64,000 bases of DNA. Origin: a virus (taxonomy: Duplodnaviria; Caudoviricetes). Positions 24,417 through 53,269 of the stretch are shown here, one piece after another. The DNA lies in IMG/VR virus record IMGVR_UViG_3300010167_000010, positions 128,001-192,000 of that record; one strand, 5' to 3'. Positions within the stretch are counted from its first letter, which is position 1. Every line of letters begins with the position of its first letter. Under the pieces are notes generated by a model. That model had not been told where the DNA came from and did not search any database. It was given only the letters and a program-made list of their open reading frames with translations. A program made the position numbers and the translations under genes.

Positions 24417-24429
24417 GTTAATATATAAA

Positions 24430-24596
24430 TATAACCGAGGTGAACGGTTATAAATTATATTCATCGGTTCCTTAAAAAGGAACGGCGGTAGGAATATCCA
24501 AAACTGCCGCCAACTTTTTCTTTTTGCTACAAAAGAAGTAAACCTAAAATGTAGCTTACCTCCAATCCGACTCTCCCTTCGGGGAGAGTATTTTTT
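24430..24596 (+). ncRNA. Putative structured small RNA
   Basis: Class M promoter, four to five hairpins and an intrinsic terminator, with no ORF. Confidence 0.55.
24570..24596 (+). terminator. Intrinsic terminator with a cUUCGg loop
   Basis: ACTCTCCC-TTCG-GGGAGAGT-ATTTTTT. Confidence 0.85.
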
Positions 24597-24617
24597 ACTA
24601 AATATTAAGAAGGATAT

Positions 24618-34915: not shown

Positions 34916-36188
34916 CCCATTCCTCTTTATATTCTGGATCTTCTTCATCCACTTTATCAATTATTCCATATTTTTTTATTAAACCACTTTCTAATTCTTC
35001 TATAGAATTATATTCTTCCCCTTGAAAAATAAATGGTGTTTGTTCTTTTTCTAATAAAAGAATGTCCATCAATTCATATAACATATGTTGTTTTAATTTT
35101 CCAGTTTCTTCATCAAAATAATTTATTAAAGAATATTGTTTTTGCTTATCTTGGGTTTTAATGCTTAAAAGATCATCAGTAACGTTTTTTAAATCTTTAA
35201 ATTCTTTTTTATTAAAAGCACCTTTTCTAGTAAAATTATCTGGAAAAGATCTAATCCTAGATTTAATTTCATCCCATTCTTGTGAAGTCCAACAACCCTT
35301 TTTTCCTAAATAAGAATCTAGCCTTAAAAGTTTTCTAGTATCTAATTCTTTATATATTTCATCATTTTTATTATCGTATGGAACGATTTTAATTAAAGAC
35401 GGATCAAATAACATTATATTACCAATATCATTTTCTTTAGAAACATACCCATCATATTCTAATCGTTTAATTATTTTAGTAACTTCCGGATTTTCCATAT
35501 AATTCCAATCATGACTAGAAAACATTAAGTCTAATTCTTTTTGAAGATTATTCATTACTGCTTTATATTGTCGTTTAGCATAATTTTCATAAAATTCTTC
35601 TGGGTTTTTTCTAACTTCTATTAAAAATTTTTCTCTATCTTTTCTATTTGAAGGGTTAAATATATTAGGTTGTTTAATAATTAAACATTTATAAACATAA
35701 AATTCATATTGATCAAATTTTGTACTTAAGTATGAATCTAAATAATGATGAATCATCGTTAAGTGTGGTGTTAAAAATACACCACCAAAAGTATCATCAC
35801 CTTTTCTAAAACTATTTCTTTTTTCAAACTGAGTAAATTTATTAGGTGATATATGATAATAAAATCTACGACTATTATAAGCCATTTCGTTTAAACGATA
35901 TATATCATCAAATGTTTTTTCTTTAAATGAACTTTTAGCATTTTCAAATCCTCTTTTATTCCCAGCTCTGAAAGCATTTGCTACCATTTTTCCAATTTCT
36001 TCATTTTTAAGATAACCATAACTATCTACAAAATTTGTAGTTTTTTGATATAAAATTGATCCATAATCATCTGGGTTTGGGCTTGTTTCCCATTCTCTTC
36101 CACCTTCTCTGGGATCCCAATTTTTTGGGAAATATTTATCTATGTCTTCTTCTGACATTGCTTCTAATATTTTTTCAAAAGATTTCAT
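34908..36188 (-). CDS. ADP-ribosyltransferase-like (ART-PolyVal-type) putative head protein
   Basis: YYHIS...F..F...GVFLTP...Y...NIFNP...YDGY...LFDPSLIK; MKSFEKILEA leader. Confidence 0.6.
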   Translation of the reverse strand: MKSFEKILEAMSEEDIDKYFPKNWDPREGGREWETSPNPDDYGSILYQKTTNFVDSYGYLKNEEIGKMVANAFRAGNKRGFENAKSSFKEKTFDDIYRLNEMAYNSRRFYYHISPNKFTQFEKRNSFRKGDDTFGGVFLTPHLTMIHHYLDSYLSTKFDQYEFYVYKCLIIKQPNIFNPSNRKDREKFLIEVRKNPEEFYENYAKRQYKAVMNNLQKELDLMFSSHDWNYMENPEVTKIIKRLEYDGYVSKENDIGNIMLFDPSLIKIVPYDNKNDEIYKELDTRKLLRLDSYLGKKGCWTSQEWDEIKSRIRSFPDNFTRKGAFNKKEFKDLKNVTDDLLSIKTQDKQKQYSLINYFDEETGKLKQHMLYELMDILLLEKEQTPFIFQGEEYNSIEELESGLIKKYGIIDKVDEEDPEYKEEWDA

Positions 36189-38302
36189 TTATTTTTTCCT
36201 AAATAAAATTTTAATTTTTTAATAATTTTATTTATATCTAATGGTTTTCCAATATGATCATTCATACCAGCATCAATACAATCTTGAATATCACTACTTA
36301 AAACACTAGCTGTCATAGCTATAATTGGAATAGTTTTAGCATTATCTAAATTTAAATTTCTAATAGCCTTTGTTGCTTCTATTCCGTTCATTTCGGGCAT
36401 TTGAACATCCATAAAAATTATATTATATTTGTCGGGATTTTTAGTAAACATTTTTATTGCTTCTTTTCCATTAATTGCTACATCGATTTTTATATTTGTT
36501 GGTTCTAATAATGTAGTAATTATTTCCCTGTTTATCTCTATATCTTCTACCAGTAAAATAGTCATATCTTTTAAATCTACGTTTTCTTCATTATCATTTT
36601 TCATTGGAATTTTTTTAGTTGTTCCTTCTTTCATTTTAACTATAAAGATAAATGATGAACCCTTTTTATATTCAGATTCTACCCAAACTATACCATTCAT
36701 CATTTCAATAATATGTTTTGAAATAGATAAACCTAATCCAGTTCCGCCAAACTTTTTATAAGTATCTCTATCAGCTTGTTGAAATGATTTGAAAAGTTTA
36801 TCTTGTTGTTCTTGAGTTAAACCAATTCCAGTATCTATAATAGAAGTTTTAATAACACAGAAGTTACTTTCTCTAGAAAGTAATTTAGATACAATACTTA
36901 TTTTTCCATTTTCTGGAGTAAATTTAACAGCATTACTTAATAAGTTTATAATAACCTGTGCTAAACGTTGTTCATCTCCTACTAAAACTTGAGGAATATT
37001 TTTATCTATATCTAATTCTAATATTTGACTTCTTTCATTTATCTTTACACTATACAAATCTACAATATTTTGTATCATGTCTCTATAAACGAATTCTATA
37101 GAATTTAATTCTAATTTATTTGCTTCTATTTTTGATAAGTCTAAAATATCATTTATAATTCCCAATAAGTGTTCTGAAGCTTCATGTATTTTATTAAAAC
37201 AATATTCTTTCTTAGTTATATCTTCAGCACTTTTTCCAATTGAAGACATTCCAATAATAATATTTATTGGTGTACGTATTTCATGAGACATATTAGCTAA
37301 GAAAATACTTTTATATTCATTTTTTAAGTTAGCTTTAACTCTTTCTTTTTCAATTTTTATTAAAATTATAATTATAAATAACGAAAAGAATAAACTACAT
37401 ACTGATAAAACTATAACAAGATTATAAGAAGCTCTATAAAAATTCATTGTTGGAACTATTGTAGTTAAAAACCAATCATTTTCCATTCTCTTTATAAATA
37501 TAATACTCTTTTCATCTCTATAATTTATAAAATTATGATTATAAATTTCATCATATCTAATTGAAGCAAAACTAATTGCTGATAAAGATTCAATTTCTAT
37601 AAAAGATAAACCTATAAATTCTTTATTATGATGAATTAAAGTTCTAGAATCTCTGTAAACTAAAGTACTATAACCTACAGAATTAACTACAATAGAATTT
37701 AAAATTTCTTCTAAATCTGTTAAATCAACTCGTATTGCAACAACGCCTAACCAATCACCAAACTTATCATATATACTTCTAGAATAAATTACAACAAGAT
37801 TATGGGTTAAGATATCTGGGAAAGATAATGTTTCTATAATTTCATTATTATTTTTAGCATTTATAAACCAATCTCTAGTTGATGGCTCTATAGTATGTGG
37901 AATATTATCTATCCCAGCAAGATGATGGAATTTACCATCAATTAAAACATACCCAAAAAAACCATCTGGTTTAATATATTCTTTTCCATAAAATAAAAAT
38001 TGAGTATTTAAATATACCATATAATTTTCAATAGTTCTTATTACATCTTCTTCTTCATTTTCAAAAAAGTGATTATTTATTATATTTTCTATCGAAATTG
38101 CAAAACCGTCTAATACATATCTAGGACTTTTAAGTGTATATTCTACTTTTGCAACAGCAGTATTTAAAATTCCTTCGGCATTTGCTACTAAAAAATAGTT
38201 TATAGTTCTATTTATAAAATTAAAACTAATAAAAGCCATTAAAAAGAATGAAACTGCCACAATAAAAATCTGCAGAGTCAGAGTTTTAAAATTTTTCAAC
38301 AT
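36185..38302 (-). CDS. Hybrid sensor histidine kinase (TM-Cache-TM-HisKA-HATPase-REC)
   Basis: FLANMSHEIRTP, NLLSNAVKFT, DTGIG, GGTGLGL, LLVED, FMDVQMP, KP. Confidence 0.95.
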   Translation of the reverse strand: MLKNFKTLTLQIFIVAVSFFLMAFISFNFINRTINYFLVANAEGILNTAVAKVEYTLKSPRYVLDGFAISIENIINNHFFENEEEDVIRTIENYMVYLNTQFLFYGKEYIKPDGFFGYVLIDGKFHHLAGIDNIPHTIEPSTRDWFINAKNNNEIIETLSFPDILTHNLVVIYSRSIYDKFGDWLGVVAIRVDLTDLEEILNSIVVNSVGYSTLVYRDSRTLIHHNKEFIGLSFIEIESLSAISFASIRYDEIYNHNFINYRDEKSIIFIKRMENDWFLTTIVPTMNFYRASYNLVIVLSVCSLFFSLFIIIILIKIEKERVKANLKNEYKSIFLANMSHEIRTPINIIIGMSSIGKSAEDITKKEYCFNKIHEASEHLLGIINDILDLSKIEANKLELNSIEFVYRDMIQNIVDLYSVKINERSQILELDIDKNIPQVLVGDEQRLAQVIINLLSNAVKFTPENGKISIVSKLLSRESNFCVIKTSIIDTGIGLTQEQQDKLFKSFQQADRDTYKKFGGTGLGLSISKHIIEMMNGIVWVESEYKKGSSFIFIVKMKEGTTKKIPMKNDNEENVDLKDMTILLVEDIEINREIITTLLEPTNIKIDVAINGKEAIKMFTKNPDKYNIIFMDVQMPEMNGIEATKAIRNLNLDNAKTIPIIAMTASVLSSDIQDCIDAGMNDHIGKPLDINKIIKKLKFYLGKNK

Positions 38303-48976: not shown

Positions 48977-49849
48977 ATGAAAGTACAGTCGTTATCTGTA
49001 TGTGTTCCTGGAAATAATTGTATAAATAATTGTCGTTGTTGTGTTTCCAGAATGCATAATAATGATAAACTTTATAAAAATCAACTTGAAGAGAATATTG
49101 CATTTTATGATTTATACTTAAATGATTTTATGAAGAGATTACAATTTTGTAGAGATAATGGTTGTAATACTTTAATGTTAACTGGGACAGTTGAACCGCA
49201 ACAGAATATGTCTTTCTTAAAAGATTTTGGAATAATGATGCGATTAATGAATAATCCTTTCCCAATAATCGAAATGCAAACTACTGGAGTTACAATTGAT
49301 AATCCTAAACTTCGCTTTTTAAGAAATCATGTTGGTGTGAGCACAATATCTTTAAGTTTATTTTCTTTTAATGATAAAGAAAACCAAAATTGTAGAGATA
49401 GTAAATTAGAATTAAATATAAAAGAATTTTGTGATGCTATAAAACTATATGATTTTAATTTACGATTAAGTTTGAATTTAACTAAATATTTTGAAAGATT
49501 TACTCCAGAACAATTAATTATAAGCTGTAAAATTTTAGGTGCTGATCAAATAACTTTTAGAAGACTCTATGATACAAATGATGGAAGTGAACAATCTGAA
49601 TGGACTAAACAAAATAGAGCAACCGAAAATTTTGAAAAAGAACTTTTAAAGTTTTTTGAAAAACAAACTGTCTTAAGAAGATTAGAACATGGACCAATAG
49701 TTCGTTCTATTGATGGAATAAGCACTGTTTTTGATTTAGATTGCATGGCTAAAGAAGATAAACATGATGATAAATGGAAATATTTGATTGTTAGACCTAA
49801 TGGAAAATTATACAGTTCTTGGGATGATCCTGCAAGTTTAATATTTTAG
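48977..49849 (+). CDS. Radical SAM protein
   Basis: CINNCRCC (CxxxCxxC), LTGTVEP, QTTG. Confidence 0.85.
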   Translation: MKVQSLSVCVPGNNCINNCRCCVSRMHNNDKLYKNQLEENIAFYDLYLNDFMKRLQFCRDNGCNTLMLTGTVEPQQNMSFLKDFGIMMRLMNNPFPIIEMQTTGVTIDNPKLRFLRNHVGVSTISLSLFSFNDKENQNCRDSKLELNIKEFCDAIKLYDFNLRLSLNLTKYFERFTPEQLIISCKILGADQITFRRLYDTNDGSEQSEWTKQNRATENFEKELLKFFEKQTVLRRLEHGPIVRSIDGISTVFDLDCMAKEDKHDDKWKYLIVRPNGKLYSSWDDPASLIF

Positions 49850-49864
49850 GTTAATTTATATTAT

Positions 49865-50058
49865 GGTTACGTAGTTTAAGGAAAATACTTATAATACCTT
49901 CGAGTGGGATAAGATTTAAGCCTGAAGTAGATAATACAAGAAGTAAGGTTCGCAAGTTAAATTTTTAGTATGATATGGTTTGGCGGCGCCGTTAATAAGC
50001 CACTCTGTAGAAATACGATCTTTTATAGGAGATGCTGGCTCGAGGCCAACCGTAATCA
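49865..50058 (+). ncRNA. tRNA-shaped RNA with a large insert replacing the anticodon loop
   Basis: Acceptor GGTTACG/CGTAATC+A, D arm, CTTATAA/TTATAGG stem, variable AGAT, T arm GCTGG-CTCGAGG-CCAAC; starts at the class M +1 position. Confidence 0.65.
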
Positions 50059-50060
50059 AA

Positions 50061-50330
50061 ATGAAAACAGTAGAAGAAATTTATTCTTATTTAGTTAACA
50101 TCAAAAATGAAGCATCAAAAATGAATGAAGATTCTTTCGATAAAACTAAAGCATTTAAATTTGTTTATAATCATATTCTAGATTTAATTGATGAACTAAA
50201 CTTTATTGATGAAGAAAATGAATTATTTGATGATGATAATTTTGATAGAAAACCAATAATAACTCAAAAGAAAAAAGAAGATAATGATTTATCTACTACT
50301 GGTAAAATAGATTTAGATGATCTTATTTAG
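50061..50330 (+). CDS. Small acidic hypothetical protein
   Basis: Start moved to ATG 50061; the upstream extension overlaps the RNA gene. Confidence 0.55.
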   Translation: MKTVEEIYSYLVNIKNEASKMNEDSFDKTKAFKFVYNHILDLIDELNFIDEENELFDDDNFDRKPIITQKKKEDNDLSTTGKIDLDDLI

Positions 50331-51352
50331 GACAAATAGCTCTATTTTGAAAACCAAATTTAAAAGCTTTTTCAGCTGATGATATATGTCCCTTTACATA
50401 TTTTTCTGCTGTTTCATACGGAAAATTTTTAATCCAATTTAAAGATTTTTTATAAGTATCTTTTTCTCTTTCAATTCCAATAAAATTACGATTACTAATA
50501 ATAGAAGAAATACCACTTGCACCACTACCCATAAATGGATCTAATACAGTTTCCCCTTCATTCGAAGATATCATCATTAACATTGATAATAATAAAATTG
50601 GCTTTTGGCATGAGTGAATAGCAGAATCGAATTTATTATTATATGATGGGTTTACAAAAAATGTTACATCAGAAGGATAACCATCAAATTTGAGTGGAAG
50701 TCCAGATGCAATGTCACATACCGTTCCCTTCTTTTGGGCTGTTTCTTCAAATTGGCATTCACTAGAAAATGCCATGATATTACCTAATGAAGTAAATCGT
50801 AATGGTGTTTTCCCATCTTCTCCATAGTCCCACCCTCGTTTTATTCCGCCTTTCATTTTATATGGTGCAATAACTTTTCGAAGATATTCTACAGAATTCC
50901 AAATATAATTTTTAGAATCTTTAGTAAGATGAAATATATCTTCTCGTAATGACTTTAATTTTTTAGTAGTTCCTCTTCCAGATTCTCTAGCATAAATAGC
51001 CCAATTTTCTAAATGATTAGTAAAACCTGTCATTTTAATTGCAGAAAACATTTCGTGTATTCTTGTTGGTCCAAAAAATACCCAACAAGTTCCGGTTGGT
51101 GTTAAAACTCTATAGATTTCATGTAACCATTTCGCAGTAAAGTGAATAAAATCTTCCGATGTTTTAAAAGTGTCCCAATCTGTTTCATTCTTATTGTGAT
51201 ACTTATTATTGAATTTAATTCCGTATGGAACTCACCTAAGGAGGGTCGGCTATAACACAGCCGACCGAATTATCTGGAAACTGTTTAAGAAAATGAAAAC
51301 AATCTCCATTATATAATTTTATATTAGAAGTATATAGATTTAATTCATTCAT
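50323..51352 (-). CDS. Beta-class N6A/N4C DNA methyltransferase interrupted by a 13-nt coding gap inside DPPY
   Basis: ORF1 51352-51239 (MNELNLY...GDCFHFLKQFPDNSVGCVIADPP), then TAG; the +1 frame resumes YGIKF...EIYRVLTPTG...HSCQKP...VLDPFMGSG. Confidence 0.8.
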
Positions 51353-51448: not shown

Positions 51449-53269
51449 ATGAAAAAAAGAATAAGTCTATTAGTAAAAATTAATGGCATAACGTCTATAT
51501 TATTGTTAACTTCAATAATTATATTGTCAATCATAAATATACAATCATTAATTGATGCAAGCAAAGAAACATCAATAATGATGGGAGAGGATAAACTAGT
51601 AAGTTGTATGTATTCATTTGAATATAGATTAAATCAAGAATATGGAAAAATATTTTTATTGGATAATGATTTAATTTCTGAAAATGGAAATTCTATTTCA
51701 AATGATTTTGCTGTTATAGATGATATATCTAAAAATTTAGGTATTCGTGCAACTATTTATATTCGAGAAAATAATGATTTTAGAAGAATAAATACTAGTA
51801 AAATTGATTTACAAGGAAATAGACCAATAAATACAAGATTAGGAGAAAGAGAAATAATTAATTCTATTTTATCTGGAAATTCTTATATTGGTTATACTAC
51901 TATTTTTGGTAATAATTATTTAGCATTTTATAAACCTTTATTTGAATACGGAACTCAAAACGTAATTGGAATAGCTTTTGCTGGTTCTGAACTAGCTGAT
52001 ATAGAAAATTTCATTGATTCTATTATAAAAAATAAAATAATTTTATTAATTTTTAAAACTTTAGCTATTTTATTTGTATCAGTAATAGCAAATATATTAT
52101 TTTGTAGATTTATTTTACTCAAACCAATAAAAGAAACAAACAAAATTTTAAAACACATTGGTGAAGGTGATCTTACTAAAAAAATGGAAGTTAAAAATAA
52201 TGATGAAATTGGTGAAATGCAAGAATATATTAATACAACAATTCAAAATATAAAACATTTAGTAAATACTATAAAACAAGAAGTAAATAAATCTGAAGAA
52301 ATTGGTCATGATTTATCTGCAAATTTAACTCAGACTGCAGCAGCTGTAAATGAAATATCTGCTAATATGCAAAGTATTAAAGAAAGAATTATTAGTCAAG
52401 CTGCTTCTGTAACAGAAACAAAAGCAACTATGGAACAAATTGTTACTAATATTGATAAATTAGACGATAGTATTGAACACCAAGCAAACTCAGTTTCACA
52501 GTCATCTTCTGCTATAGAACAGATGCTTGCCAATATTCAATCAGTAACACAAACACTTGTGAAAAATGGTGATAACGTTAAAGCACTCTTAACTGCTTCA
52601 GATATTGGTCATAAAGGATTACAAAATGTTTCTGAAACAGTAAATGAAGTTACAAAAGAATCAGAACAATTATTAGAAATAAATAAAATTATTCAAGATA
52701 TTGCATCTCAAACTAATCTTTTATCTATGAATGCAGCTATCGAAGCTGCACATGCTGGAGATGCAGGAAAAGGATTCGCGGTTGTAGCAGAAGAAATTAG
52801 AAAATTAGCAGATAGCTCGTCGCAACAATCTAATGTAATTAAACAAGTACTAAAAAAAATTATGGGTGACATAGAATCAGCTACTAAACTTGTTGCAGAT
52901 GTTTTAACAAAATTTGATTTAGTAGATGAGAATGTAAAAACGGTTGCCGAACAAGAAGATAGTATCCGTTGTTCTATGGAAGAACAATCAGTTGGTAGTA
53001 AACAAATTCTTGAATCTATAAGTAAAGTTAATGAAGTATCTCAACAAGTTAAACATGGTTCTAAAGAGATGTTAGAAGGTTCATCTGAAGTAATACGAGA
53101 AAGTAAAGATTTAGAAAGAGTTACTCAAGAAATATCTAGTAATATAAATGAGATGGCAGCAGGCGTCGACCAAATAAATATTGCTGTTCATCAAATAAGT
53201 GAGTTAGGTACTAAAAATAAAGAACAAACTAGAATATTATTAGAAGAAATTAGTAAATTTACTGTTTAG
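51449..53269 (+). CDS. Methyl-accepting chemotaxis protein (TM-Cache-TM-HAMP-MCP signal)
   Basis: IASQTNLLSMNAAIEAAHAGDAGKGFAVVAEEIRKLA; HAMP GDLT...DEIG. Confidence 0.95.
   Translation: MKKRISLLVKINGITSILLLTSIIILSIINIQSLIDASKETSIMMGEDKLVSCMYSFEYRLNQEYGKIFLLDNDLISENGNSISNDFAVIDDISKNLGIRATIYIRENNDFRRINTSKIDLQGNRPINTRLGEREIINSILSGNSYIGYTTIFGNNYLAFYKPLFEYGTQNVIGIAFAGSELADIENFIDSIIKNKIILLIFKTLAILFVSVIANILFCRFILLKPIKETNKILKHIGEGDLTKKMEVKNNDEIGEMQEYINTTIQNIKHLVNTIKQEVNKSEEIGHDLSANLTQTAAAVNEISANMQSIKERIISQAASVTETKATMEQIVTNIDKLDDSIEHQANSVSQSSSAIEQMLANIQSVTQTLVKNGDNVKALLTASDIGHKGLQNVSETVNEVTKESEQLLEINKIIQDIASQTNLLSMNAAIEAAHAGDAGKGFAVVAEEIRKLADSSSQQSNVIKQVLKKIMGDIESATKLVADVLTKFDLVDENVKTVAEQEDSIRCSMEEQSVGSKQILESISKVNEVSQQVKHGSKEMLEGSSEVIRESKDLERVTQEISSNINEMAAGVDQINIAVHQISELGTKNKEQTRILLEEISKFTV

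What the first reader, a model, noticed from the sequence alone, without database searches (positions are those of the whole stretch)
49864..50059. tRNA-shaped RNA with a structured domain of about 128 nt in place of the anticodon loop
Seen: acceptor GGTTACG (49865-71) pairs with CGTAATC (50051-57) plus A. It is followed by TA, a D arm GTTT-AAGGA-AAAT, a stem CTTATAA (49888-94)/TTATAGG (50023-29), variable AGAT and a T arm GCTGG-CTCGAGG-CCAAC (one mismatch, non-canonical loop). No CCA is encoded. The insert has its own helices: GAGTGG/CCACTC, AAGATTTAA/TTAAATTTT, TTGGCGG/CCGTTAA and a GTA-GAAA-TAC tetraloop. The class M promoter places +1 at T49864; including that base gives an 8-bp acceptor with G-U at the third pair, the AlaRS determinant position. 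The RNA is short for a tmRNA or a group I intron-containing tRNA. I see no splice that restores a 7-nt anticodon loop and no canonical tag peptide (one internal frame reads EVDNTRSKVRKLNF*). Inference: a mini-tmRNA-like RNA, a tRNA decoy against anticodon nucleases, or a new class of tRNA-scaffolded RNA.
Basis: partly seen in the sequence, partly recalled or inferred. Interest (0 to 1): 0.85.

Follow-up and report, generated by a model that had tools for sequence, protein, structure and literature searches.

The report
New tRNA-shaped phage leader RNA
A 329-kb phage from termite-gut spirochaetes carries a roughly 195-base folded RNA with a tRNA-like junction, which matches no described RNA family, is kept by compensating mutations in four diverged phage lineages, and always sits directly in front of the same small acidic protein gene.

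Summary
Window 49864-50058 (+ strand) lies in a 211-nt non-coding gap and folds as described: paired ends, small D-like hairpin, long stem, 4-nt linker, 3' hairpin.

I found three diverged homologues in other termite-gut phage contigs (L122, L298, L300). On the four-sequence alignment, 97% of 168 pair cells are standard pairs. 22 of 46 pairs changed on both sides, against 1-3 in slid controls. It is therefore a real, selected RNA structure on the + strand.

ARAGORN and Rfam (4227 families) find nothing in any member. It is not a tRNA, an intron-containing tRNA or a tmRNA:
- there is no restorable anticodon loop;
- the G-U pair is not conserved;
- the candidate tag frame is not conserved;
- the 3' arm is usually 7 bp with a 6-nt loop.

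Comparison also corrects the inner domain. It has two arms (P4-P5 and PA-PB-P6') joined by conserved unpaired bases.

All four copies follow a GTTAAT promoter-like motif, have no terminator and end 2-6 nt before the AUG of one small acidic protein family. In two copies the 3' strand of the closing helix is itself Shine-Dalgarno-like. Six other contexts of that gene family gave no match.

Best reading: a new structured 5' leader RNA with a tRNA-like scaffold. A released tRNA-mimic small RNA is the main rival. Function is untested.

The parts
49850..49858 (+). Promoter-like motif GTTAATTTA (phage class GTTAATWTA), directly after the stop codon of the upstream gene
   Evidence: 14 matches in the window against 6.6 expected. 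75 in the genome, 27 with an ATG 5-6 nt downstream. The same motif precedes the RNA in L122 and L298, and a variant in L300. Inference only: no transcript start was mapped.
49864..50058 (+). Structured RNA element, about 195 nt: 9 conserved helices, + strand
   Evidence: Covariance models find homologues at 92.7, 96.6 and 70.5 bits. 97% of pair cells are paired and 22 of 46 pairs changed on both sides. Each member has 3-8 G-U pairs, which fixes the strand. Gap lengths in the alignments are not multiples of three.
49865..49871 (+). P1 5' strand (acceptor-like, 7 bp; T49864-A50058 adds an 8th pair in this phage only)
   Evidence: All 7 pairs covary across four sequences: GGUUACG, UGAUUAG, UAUCCUU, UGCCUCU with matching partners.
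50051..50057 (+). P1 3' strand; it ends 3 nt before the AUG at 50061
   Evidence: In L298 (AAGGAUG) and L300 (AGAGGCA) this strand is Shine-Dalgarno-like.
49872..49887 (+). UA linker, D-like hairpin GUUU-AAGGA-AAAU, and A linker
   Evidence: The stem is present in all four (G-U or G-C plus three U-A), with one one-sided change and no double change. Sequence is highly conserved. RNAalifold does not predict it, so it is the weakest helix.
49888..49894 (+). P2 5' strand (7-bp stem in place of an anticodon stem)
   Evidence: Pairs with 50023-50029. 3 of 7 pairs changed on both sides and 100% are paired.
49895..49910 (+). Conserved unpaired junction (GAGUGGGAU core)
   Evidence: GAG.G.GA is conserved in all four. 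Its pairing to CCACUC 50000-05 is window/L122-specific and absent in L298.
49911..49965 (+). P4-P5 arm: P4 49911-19/49957-65, P5 49920-23/49946-49, 22-nt loop GAAGUAGA...AAGAAGUA
   Evidence: All 4 P5 pairs covary in three members. L300 has its own 6-bp hairpin there and lacks the conserved loop. P4 is shortened in L298 and L300.
49968..50016 (+). PA-PB-P6' arm: PA 49968-71/50013-16, GA/GAA internal loop, PB 49974-78/50005-09, P6' 49981-84/49999-50002, GC-rich palindromic end loop
   Evidence: PA and PB were not in the model that made alignments A6 and A7, yet they pair in 95-100% of cells with double changes. RNAalifold predicts them independently. P6' has a different sequence in each member.
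50023..50033 (+). P2 3' strand plus 4-nt linker AGAU (variable-loop position); together they read GGAGAU
   Evidence: The linker is AGAU, AGAU, AAAU, AGAU in the four members.
50034..50050 (+). P7, the 3' hairpin (T-arm position), abutting P1 with no spacer
   Evidence: 5 of 6 pairs changed on both sides. The form varies: 6 bp/5 nt here, 7 bp/6 nt in L122 and L298, 5 bp/7 nt plus 12 extra nt in L300. The loop always holds U(G)CGA.
50061..50330 (+). Downstream ORF, 89 aa, acidic (pI 4.3), family with an SFDK motif; the gene the RNA is always attached to
   Evidence: Homologues follow the RNA in L122, L298 and L300. 17 family representatives in 1.8 billion proteins. The model is a two-helix hairpin with a disordered acidic tail, pLDDT 70. 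No Pfam or PHROG match.
48977..49849 (+). Upstream radical-SAM ORF (context only, not part of the element)
   Evidence: Pfam Radical_SAM E = 1.2e-5. The RNA is absent after its 83%-identical homologue in L121. The upstream gene is an unrelated 81-aa ORF in L300.

Best explanation
This is a member of a previously undescribed family of structured phage RNAs. It is about 195 nt long.

The core is a tRNA-like four-way junction:
- a 7-bp closing helix;
- a small D-like hairpin;
- a 7-bp stem;
- a 4-nt linker;
- a 3' hairpin stacked on the closing helix.

The 'anticodon' stem opens into a three-way junction with two further arms and many conserved unpaired bases.

I infer that it is transcribed from the phage's GTTAATWTA-type promoter as the 5' part of the mRNA of a small acidic protein, and that it acts in cis on that gene. 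When the closing helix P1 forms, its 3' strand ties up the ribosome landing site. That strand ends 2-6 nt before the AUG and is itself the Shine-Dalgarno sequence in two members. Translation would then depend on whatever stabilises, opens or cuts the fold: a ligand, a tRNA-binding protein, or a tRNA-processing nuclease.

Shown: the conserved structure, the strand, the non-coding nature, the fixed position before one gene family, and the absence of a terminator. Inferred: the promoter use, co-transcription and the regulatory action.
For: Structure:
- Four diverged members keep 46 pairs at 97%. 22 pairs changed on both sides, slid controls give 1-3, and 0 of 500 shuffles reach this.
- Helices PA and PB covary although they were not in the model that aligned them.

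Selection:
- RNA identity between the window and L122 is 69%. Fourfold-degenerate sites of the flanking radical-SAM gene are 46% identical and third codon positions 57%.

Non-coding:
- Gap lengths are not multiples of three, and no frame is shared.

Link to the downstream gene:
- The RNA lies directly 5' of a homologue of the 89-aa gene in all four members, while the upstream gene differs.
- Two of the homologues (L298, L300) were found only by searching for that protein.

Expression signals:
- There is no terminator-like site between the RNA and the ORF.
- The P1 3' strand ends 3, 3, 6 and 2 nt before the AUG. It reads AAGGAUG in L298 and AGAGGCA in L300, both Shine-Dalgarno-like.
- A promoter-like motif with a fixed spacing to start codons elsewhere in the genome precedes each copy.
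- In relatives without the RNA, the ORF's start overlaps the upstream gene's stop (TAATG or ATGA) and no promoter motif was seen there. So the RNA arrives together with its own promoter.

Size and number of conserved junction bases resemble large riboswitches and protein-binding leaders. This last point rests on general knowledge and was not tested.
Against: - No transcript ends, ligand, binding protein or alternative 'ON' fold were shown.
- The window's copy and L122 have no Shine-Dalgarno-like sequence in or after P1. Masking would have to act on an A-rich, SD-less start.
- The conserved GGAGAU lies 28 nt before the AUG, too far to serve as the ribosome-binding site unless P7 bridges the gap.
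- A regulator that is missing from six of ten known contexts of the gene is clearly dispensable.
- Co-location with the gene would equally follow if a stable small RNA were simply cut from the 5' end of this mRNA.
- Only four sequences exist, all from termite-gut metagenomes. Two alignments were fitted to a model, which favours the modelled pairs.
Confidence: 0.45

Rival explanations
1. A stable tRNA-mimic small RNA. The element is cut out of the primary transcript by the tRNA-processing enzymes (RNase P at the 5' side, RNase Z or an equivalent after the unpaired A that follows P1). It is possibly extended with CCA by the phage's own nucleotidyltransferase, and then acts in trans as a decoy, sponge or cofactor. 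The cut would also leave the downstream mRNA almost leaderless, which is the form this phage seems to favour.
For: - The cloverleaf-like linker lengths 2/1/4/0, the 7-bp closing helix and an unpaired A after it are kept in W, L122 and L298.
- ARAGORN calls the window's scaffold a tRNA when the insert is replaced by a 7-nt loop.
- None of the phage's 22 tRNA genes encodes CCA, apart from a possible CCA at the end of tRNA-Ile(GAT), and several start with U1-A72.
- The phage encodes a CCA-adding-type enzyme (PF01743, 120 bits).
- 27 of 75 GTTAATWTA motifs sit 5-6 nt before an ATG, which suggests leaderless mRNAs are common here.
- T4 makes two stable RNAs of unknown role, RNAC and RNAD, from its tRNA region (PMC3014915).
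Against: - The 3' arm is 7 bp with a 6-nt loop in two members. The stack P1+P7 is then 14 bp rather than the 12 bp that RNase P, RNase Z and CCA-adding enzymes measure on tRNA (established knowledge of those enzymes).
- ARAGORN rejects the L122 scaffold.
- L300 has 12 extra nt between the hairpin and P1.
- There is no hit to the Rfam tRNA model even at E = 10, and no sequence likeness to the phage's own tRNAs.
- A free-standing small-RNA gene would not need to stay glued to one protein gene.
Confidence: 0.3
2. A self-cleaving or otherwise catalytic RNA that trims its own transcript, so that the downstream ORF gets a defined, nearly leaderless 5' end.
For: - The fold is complex, with many invariant unpaired bases (GA/GAA loop, GAG.G.GA junction, U(G)CGA loop).
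- Its position is immediately before an AUG that has no Shine-Dalgarno sequence in two members.
Against: - No Rfam ribozyme model matches.
- To my knowledge, known small self-cleaving ribozymes do not cut at their extreme 3' end.
- No cleavage data exist.
- Two members do have an SD-like sequence inside P1.
Confidence: 0.06
3. A miniature tmRNA: a tRNA-like domain charged with alanine plus a short tag frame.
For: The ends are paired, a hairpin stacks on them, and there is a long stem in place of the anticodon arm. In this phage only, a G-U falls at the third pair if T49864 is counted.
Against: - The G-U becomes A-U in L122, and the helix has unrelated sequences in L298 and L300.
- The candidate frame stops after EVD in L122. 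The loop that holds it is absent in L300.
- ARAGORN and Rfam tmRNA models give nothing.
- No SmpB in the phage.
- At 195 nt it is below the length I recall for known bacterial tmRNAs.
Confidence: 0.01
4. A tRNA gene interrupted by an intron in the anticodon loop.
For: The scaffold is tRNA-shaped, and the phage lacks tRNA genes for Gly, Val, Trp and Tyr.
Against: - No splice restores a 7-nt loop with U33. The bases after the stem are AAUA in all members.
- The insert (about 128 nt) is shorter than any group I intron I know of, and no Intron_gpI or gpII hit appears.
- ARAGORN in intron mode finds nothing here.
- The stem is 7 bp, not 5.
Confidence: 0.01
5. A DNA-level feature (a miniature inverted-repeat mobile element), or a neutral spacer whose apparent helices are chance.
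For: The element is present in some related phages and absent in others. Its ends are inverted repeats.
Against: - Nine internal helices are kept by compensatory changes, with 3-8 G-U pairs per member. These would be A-C mismatches on the other strand or in DNA.
- There is a single copy per genome.
- No target-site duplication is visible at the borders.
- Conservation is above that of synonymous sites.
Confidence: 0.02

Closest known systems
Canonical tRNA (and tRNA-like domains in general)
   Same: A 7-bp helix formed by the two ends. U-A linker, a 4-bp D-like stem with a purine-rich loop, a 1-nt linker, a stem in the anticodon position, a 4-nt 'variable' linker, and a hairpin with a U(G)CGA loop stacked directly on the closing helix. 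An unpaired A follows, and no CCA is encoded, as in this phage's own tRNA genes.
   Different: There is no anticodon loop; a 120-130-nt two-armed domain sits there. The anticodon-position stem is 7 bp. The 3' arm is 6-7 bp with a 5-6-nt loop in three of four members. The D loop is only 5-7 nt. There is no hit to tRNA models and no sequence likeness to tRNAs.
tmRNA (SsrA) tRNA-like domain
   Same: The ends pair into an acceptor-like helix with a stacked T-like hairpin, and a long helix replaces the anticodon arm.
   Different: There is no conserved G3-U70, no shared tag frame and no recognisable pseudoknot set. It is about half the usual length and lies inside an mRNA leader.
tRNA-mimicking translational operators, such as the E. 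coli thrS leader that binds ThrRS (from general knowledge, not tested here)
   Same: A tRNA-like fold in a 5' leader next to the ribosome-binding site. Occupancy of the fold could decide whether the ribosome can land.
   Different: The thrS operator mimics an anticodon arm and controls a synthetase gene. Here it is the anticodon loop that is missing, and the controlled gene encodes an 89-aa acidic protein of unknown role.
Large riboswitches and structured leaders with a closing helix that holds the ribosome-binding site
   Same: It sits in a 5' leader and has a multi-junction fold of about 200 nt with invariant junction bases. The closing helix's 3' strand abuts or contains the Shine-Dalgarno sequence.
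   Different: No known class matches. No ligand or alternative fold has been identified. Two members lack any SD.
Phage T4 stable RNAs RNAC and RNAD
   Same: Phage-encoded small RNAs tied to the tRNA world whose role is unknown (PMC3014915).
   Different: The T4 RNAs lie in the tRNA gene cluster. This RNA lies far from the phage's tRNA clusters and is attached to a protein gene. I had no T4 sequences to compare, so there is no test of kinship.

Membership tests
tRNA | Recognised by tRNA detectors or models | tested here: not met
   ARAGORN with and without introns finds nothing at the locus. The Rfam tRNA model gives no hit at E <= 10.
tRNA | 7-nt anticodon loop on a 5-bp stem | tested here: not met
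   The stem is 7 bp and is followed by a 120-130-nt domain in all four members.
tRNA | 7-bp acceptor helix and cloverleaf linker lengths | tested here: met
   P1 has 7 bp in all four and every pair covaries. Linkers are 2/1/4/0 in W, L122 and L298. L300 deviates at the 3' arm.
tRNA | T arm of 5 bp with a 7-nt T-loop | tested here: inconclusive
   This form is possible in W (GCUGG-CUCGAGG-CCAAC, one mismatch) and in L300 (ACUAG-UGCGAUU-CUAGU). It is 7 bp + 6 nt in L122 and L298. ARAGORN accepts the W scaffold but not L122.
tRNA | 3' CCA and aminoacylation | not testable with these tools
   No CCA is encoded, and the phage's tRNA genes encode none either, with the possible exception of tRNA-Ile(GAT). 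A CCA-adding-type enzyme is present. Charging needs an experiment.
tmRNA | G3-U70 in the acceptor helix | tested here: not met
   G-U occurs in W only. It is A-U in L122 and other pairs in L298 and L300.
tmRNA | Conserved tag reading frame with resume codon and stop | tested here: not met
   The frame stops after three codons in L122. The loop is absent in L300.
tmRNA | Detection by ARAGORN or Rfam tmRNA models | tested here: not met
Group I intron in a tRNA | Group I core, and a splice that restores the anticodon loop | tested here: not met
   No Rfam intron hit. No junction gives a 7-nt loop with U33. The insert is about 128 nt.
Bacterial Y RNA (YrlA type) | Ro/Rsr (TROVE) partner gene and a Y RNA model match | tested here: not met
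   No TROVE domain in the phage. No Rfam hit. The host gene was not examined.
Cis-regulatory 5' leader (riboswitch-like) | Fixed position directly upstream of one gene family, on the same strand, with no terminator between | tested here: met
   Four of four members. No terminator-like site.
Cis-regulatory 5' leader (riboswitch-like) | Ribosome-binding site held in a helix of the element | tested here: inconclusive
   SD-like AAGGAUG (L298) and AGAGGCA (L300) form the P1 3' strand. W and L122 have no SD there.
Cis-regulatory 5' leader (riboswitch-like) | Effector (ligand or protein) and mutually exclusive folds | not testable with these tools
   Conserved complementary segments exist (AAGAUU with GAUCUU/AAUCU), but no switch was shown.
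T4 RNAC / RNAD | Sequence or structure kinship | not tested
Only the statement that their roles are unknown was read.

The most novel reading that the evidence does not exclude
The element is a new class of tRNA-mimicking regulatory RNA. Its cloverleaf-like core recruits a tRNA-handling factor (a processing nuclease, the CCA-adding enzyme, a synthetase, or a host anti-phage protein that senses tRNA). Binding or cleavage there switches on a small acidic phage protein, for instance by converting the transcript into a leaderless mRNA. Alternatively, the two-armed domain is the aptamer of a new riboswitch class found only in phages.
Probability: 0.3. Interest if true: 0.8.

Novelty: new variant of a known kind. 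Interest (0 to 1): 0.62.

Why it matters
Few structured RNAs are known from phages, and almost none from jumbo phages of uncultured hosts. This one has nine covarying helices and a tRNA-like core. It appears or is missing between close relatives, and it has a fixed partner gene. That makes it a well-defined new RNA family that can be tested directly by end mapping, probing, nuclease assays and reporter fusions.

If the tRNA-like core is read by tRNA enzymes, it would be a bacterial-virus example of tRNA mimicry used to shape an mRNA. That principle is so far documented mainly in eukaryotic and plant-virus RNAs. If the element binds a small molecule, it would be a phage-specific riboswitch class.

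Tried and rejected
- **Pattern scans of viral contigs.** Six DNA patterns from the RNA gave either only chance hits (100 of those loci were then re-scored with model R1 and none matched) or nothing.
- **Radical-SAM route.** 28 metagenome loci and several look-ups of the upstream gene's homologues yielded only L122 and its duplicates. Most homologues have no gap after the gene.
- **Model searches.** R1-R3 found no second copy in the phage's own genome. They found nothing in five related jumbo-phage records that are 1-79% complete. Nothing turned up in 5 + 151 + 151 spirochaete genomes of the likely host family and order. This means 'not found in those searched', not absent.
- **Thermodynamics.** Single-sequence folding is not informative.
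- **P3.** The helix GAGUGG/CCACUC was first modelled, then tried as a pseudoknot, then dropped because L298 lacks the partner strand.
- **RNA library.** In one termite-gut metatranscriptome run, a 223-nt contig lies on 50058-50278, a second lies on 50387-50566, and none lies on the element. This is one low-depth run kept as contigs. It shows neither a transcript end nor absence of the RNA, and DNA carry-over cannot be excluded. I draw nothing from it.
- **Kinship with the phage's tRNAs.** No sequence likeness was found.
- **Mini-ORF.** An AUG overlaps the 5' end of P1 in three of four members (MVT*, MISSL*, 29 codons). There is no conservation of length or sequence, and it lies upstream of the start predicted from the promoter spacing. 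It remains unexplained.
- **Flanking proteins.** NCBIfam, PHROGs and PDB searches gave no usable name. The fold model of the 89-aa protein is a plain helical hairpin, so no fold search was run.
- **Literature.** Searches found no described phage RNA of this shape.

Full report
**Setting.** The window is bases 128001-192000 of a 329,018-bp virus record with direct terminal repeats. The record is AT-rich and carries 22 tRNA genes elsewhere in the genome. Its chemoreceptor gene is closest (58% identity over the C-terminal part) to genes of termite-gut Treponema genomes. All sequencing runs that hold the stretch are termite-gut metagenomes.

The finding lies in a 211-nt gap between a radical-SAM ORF (48977-49849) and an 89-aa ORF (50061-50330), both on the + strand.

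**Check of the observation.** ARAGORN (with and without introns, plus tmRNA mode) and Rfam find nothing, either at gathering thresholds over the window or at E <= 10 over the locus. The minimum free energy is no better than that of shuffled sequence (z = 0.04). A single sequence therefore cannot decide whether the shape is more than chance.

**Homologues.** Contexts of the radical-SAM gene's relatives gave the first comparison:
- The closest relative (83% protein identity, L121) has no gap at all. The two ORFs overlap in TAATG.
- A more distant one (68%, L122, with L123 and L127 as duplicates) has a gap of the same size, about 70% identical.

Three further assemblies of the same phage were identical to the window. 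The decisive step was to search by the downstream protein instead:
- A 47%-identical homologue lies on a 500-nt contig whose first 214 nt have no called gene (L298).
- A profile search of 1.8 billion representatives gave 17 family members.
- One of these (P0128, L300) is again preceded by a 211-nt gap.

**Structure.** On the four-sequence alignment, eight helices (46 pairs) are paired in 97% of 168 cells. 22 pairs changed on both sides. No shuffle of 500 reaches any of the measures. Sliding the partners by 1-3 columns gives 38-47% pairing and 1-3 double changes.

- The closing helix P1 has four unrelated sequences (GGUUACG, UGAUUAG, UAUCCUU, UGCCUCU), each with its exact partner.
- Two helices, PA and PB, were not part of the models that produced alignments A6 and A7. 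They still pair in 95-100% of cells with double changes, and RNAalifold predicts them independently.
- A ninth helix, P6', is present in all four with different sequences but is not column-consistent in the alignment.
- Each member has 3-8 G-U pairs, so the RNA is read from the + strand.
- Alignment gaps are of 1, 2 and 4 nt and no frame is shared, so the stretch is non-coding.
- Identity between the window and L122 (69%) exceeds that of fourfold-degenerate sites (46%) and third codon positions (57%) in the neighbouring gene.

**Corrected anatomy (window coordinates).**
- P1: 49865-71 / 50051-57.
- UA linker.
- D-like hairpin: 49874-86. This is the weakest helix: no double change, and RNAalifold does not predict it.
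- A linker.
- P2: 49888-94 / 50023-29.
- Conserved unpaired junction: 49895-910.
- P4-P5 arm: 49911-65, with a 22-nt loop carrying GAAGUA twice. That loop is conserved in three members and replaced by a short GC hairpin in L300.
- Rod-like arm PA - GA/GAA internal loop - PB - P6': 49968-50016, ending in a GC-rich palindromic loop.
- Short junction: 50017-22.
- AGAU linker.
- P7: 50034-50, which abuts P1.

**How tRNA-like is it?** In favour:
- The linker lengths around the junction (2, 1, 4, 0 nt), the 7-bp closing helix and the unpaired A after it are those of a cloverleaf in three members.
- ARAGORN calls the window's scaffold a tRNA when the insert is replaced by an artificial 7-nt loop.

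Against:
- It rejects the L122 scaffold.
- P7 is 7 bp with a 6-nt loop in two members.
- L300 has 12 extra nt between P7 and P1.
- The stem in the anticodon position is 7 bp.
- There is no sequence likeness to the phage's own tRNAs.

The resemblance is therefore one of junction topology, not membership.

The tmRNA reading fails on its defining features: G3-U70, a tag frame and model detection. The intron reading fails because no splice restores an anticodon loop and no intron model matches. The phage has no SmpB and no Ro/TROVE protein, but it does have a CCA-adding-type enzyme. Its tRNA genes, with the possible exception of tRNA-Ile(GAT), encode no CCA.

**Context and likely action.** Each copy follows directly on the stop codon of the upstream gene with GTTAAT(T/A)T(A/T). 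This motif occurs 75 times in the phage, and in 27 cases an ATG starts 5-6 nt after it.

There is no terminator-like site between the RNA and the ORF. The P1 3' strand ends 3, 3, 6 and 2 nt before the AUG. In L298 and L300 it is Shine-Dalgarno-like.

The upstream gene is a radical-SAM gene in two members and an 81-aa ORF in L300. The downstream gene is always a homologue of the 89-aa acidic protein. That protein has pI 4.3 and is modelled as a helical hairpin with an acidic tail.

Of ten known contexts of this gene family, four carry the RNA:
- In four others the ORF's start overlaps the upstream gene's stop.
- In the remaining two (L299, with only 103 nt available upstream, and L301) the model found no match.

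I therefore read the element as a promoter-plus-leader module attached to this gene, most likely controlling its translation through P1. The main rival is a tRNA-mimic small RNA released by tRNA-processing enzymes, which would also leave a near-leaderless mRNA. The two readings are not exclusive.

**Limits.**
- There are only four distinct sequences, all from one habitat.
- The alignments were fitted to models.
- No transcript ends are known.
- The only RNA-library data are low-depth contigs and are not interpretable.
- Function is inferred from position and anatomy alone.

**Verdict.** It is a new family of structured phage RNA with a tRNA-like core, not a tRNA, an intron-containing tRNA or a tmRNA. 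It most likely acts as a cis leader of a small acidic protein gene.

Noticed in passing
window 24417-24598 (+): A second non-coding RNA candidate. The same GTTAATATA motif is followed by a 165-nt multi-branched fold (closing helix GAGGUGA/UUACCUC) and a clear intrinsic terminator (GACUCUCCC-UUCG-GGGAGAGU plus a U run). z = -5.4 against shuffles, no Rfam hit. It shares AAGAAGUAA with the L5 loop of the element studied here. Only its promoter and terminator ends gave short matches in related phage records.
   Followed up: partly
window 51449-53269 (+): The phage encodes a full-length methyl-accepting chemotaxis protein (Cache, HAMP and MCP signalling domains). Its closest genomic relatives are in termite-gut Treponema genomes (54-58% identity), which also points to the host.
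   Followed up: partly
window 36185-38302 (-): The phage encodes a hybrid sensor histidine kinase (dCache, HisKA, HATPase and a receiver domain). This is a second host-type signalling gene in the phage.
   Followed up: no
window 50323-51352 (-): The DNA methyltransferase ORF here is only 242 aa, whereas the syntenic gene in related contigs is 338-342 aa. A 38-codon ORF lies just upstream on the same strand. I did not examine it.
   Followed up: no
whole genome (G000); e.g. window 748, 21715, 25198, 26984, 29915: GTTAATWTA occurs 75 times, 62 of them on the + strand. In 27 cases an ATG begins 5 or 6 nt after it, which suggests a phage promoter class that makes leaderless or near-leaderless mRNAs.
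   Followed up: partly
G000:C1:57598-57960 (outside the window): A CCA-adding-type nucleotidyltransferase gene (PF01743, 120 bits, 479-aa frame). It sits in a phage whose 22 tRNA genes, apart from a possible CCA in tRNA-Ile(GAT), encode no CCA. Eight of those genes start with U1-A72.
   Followed up: partly
G000:C1:27747-27861 (outside the window): ARAGORN in intron mode calls an extra tRNA-Cys(GCA) with a 35-nt insert, right after tRNA-Ser. It may be a false call or an interrupted tRNA gene.
   Followed up: no
window 49863-49874; L122 2381-2398; L300 1305-1394: An AUG overlaps the first bases of P1 in three of four members. It opens frames of 3, 5 and 29 codons with no shared sequence. It could be a relic of the promoter's usual leaderless start or a leaderless mini-ORF. 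Unexplained.
   Followed up: partly
window 48977-49849 and L124 4001-6134: The radical-SAM family upstream of the RNA has more than 1400 relatives. In another phage-like contig it is followed by a DUF5131 gene. It has no NCBIfam, PHROG or PDB sequence match, so its chemistry is unknown.
   Followed up: partly
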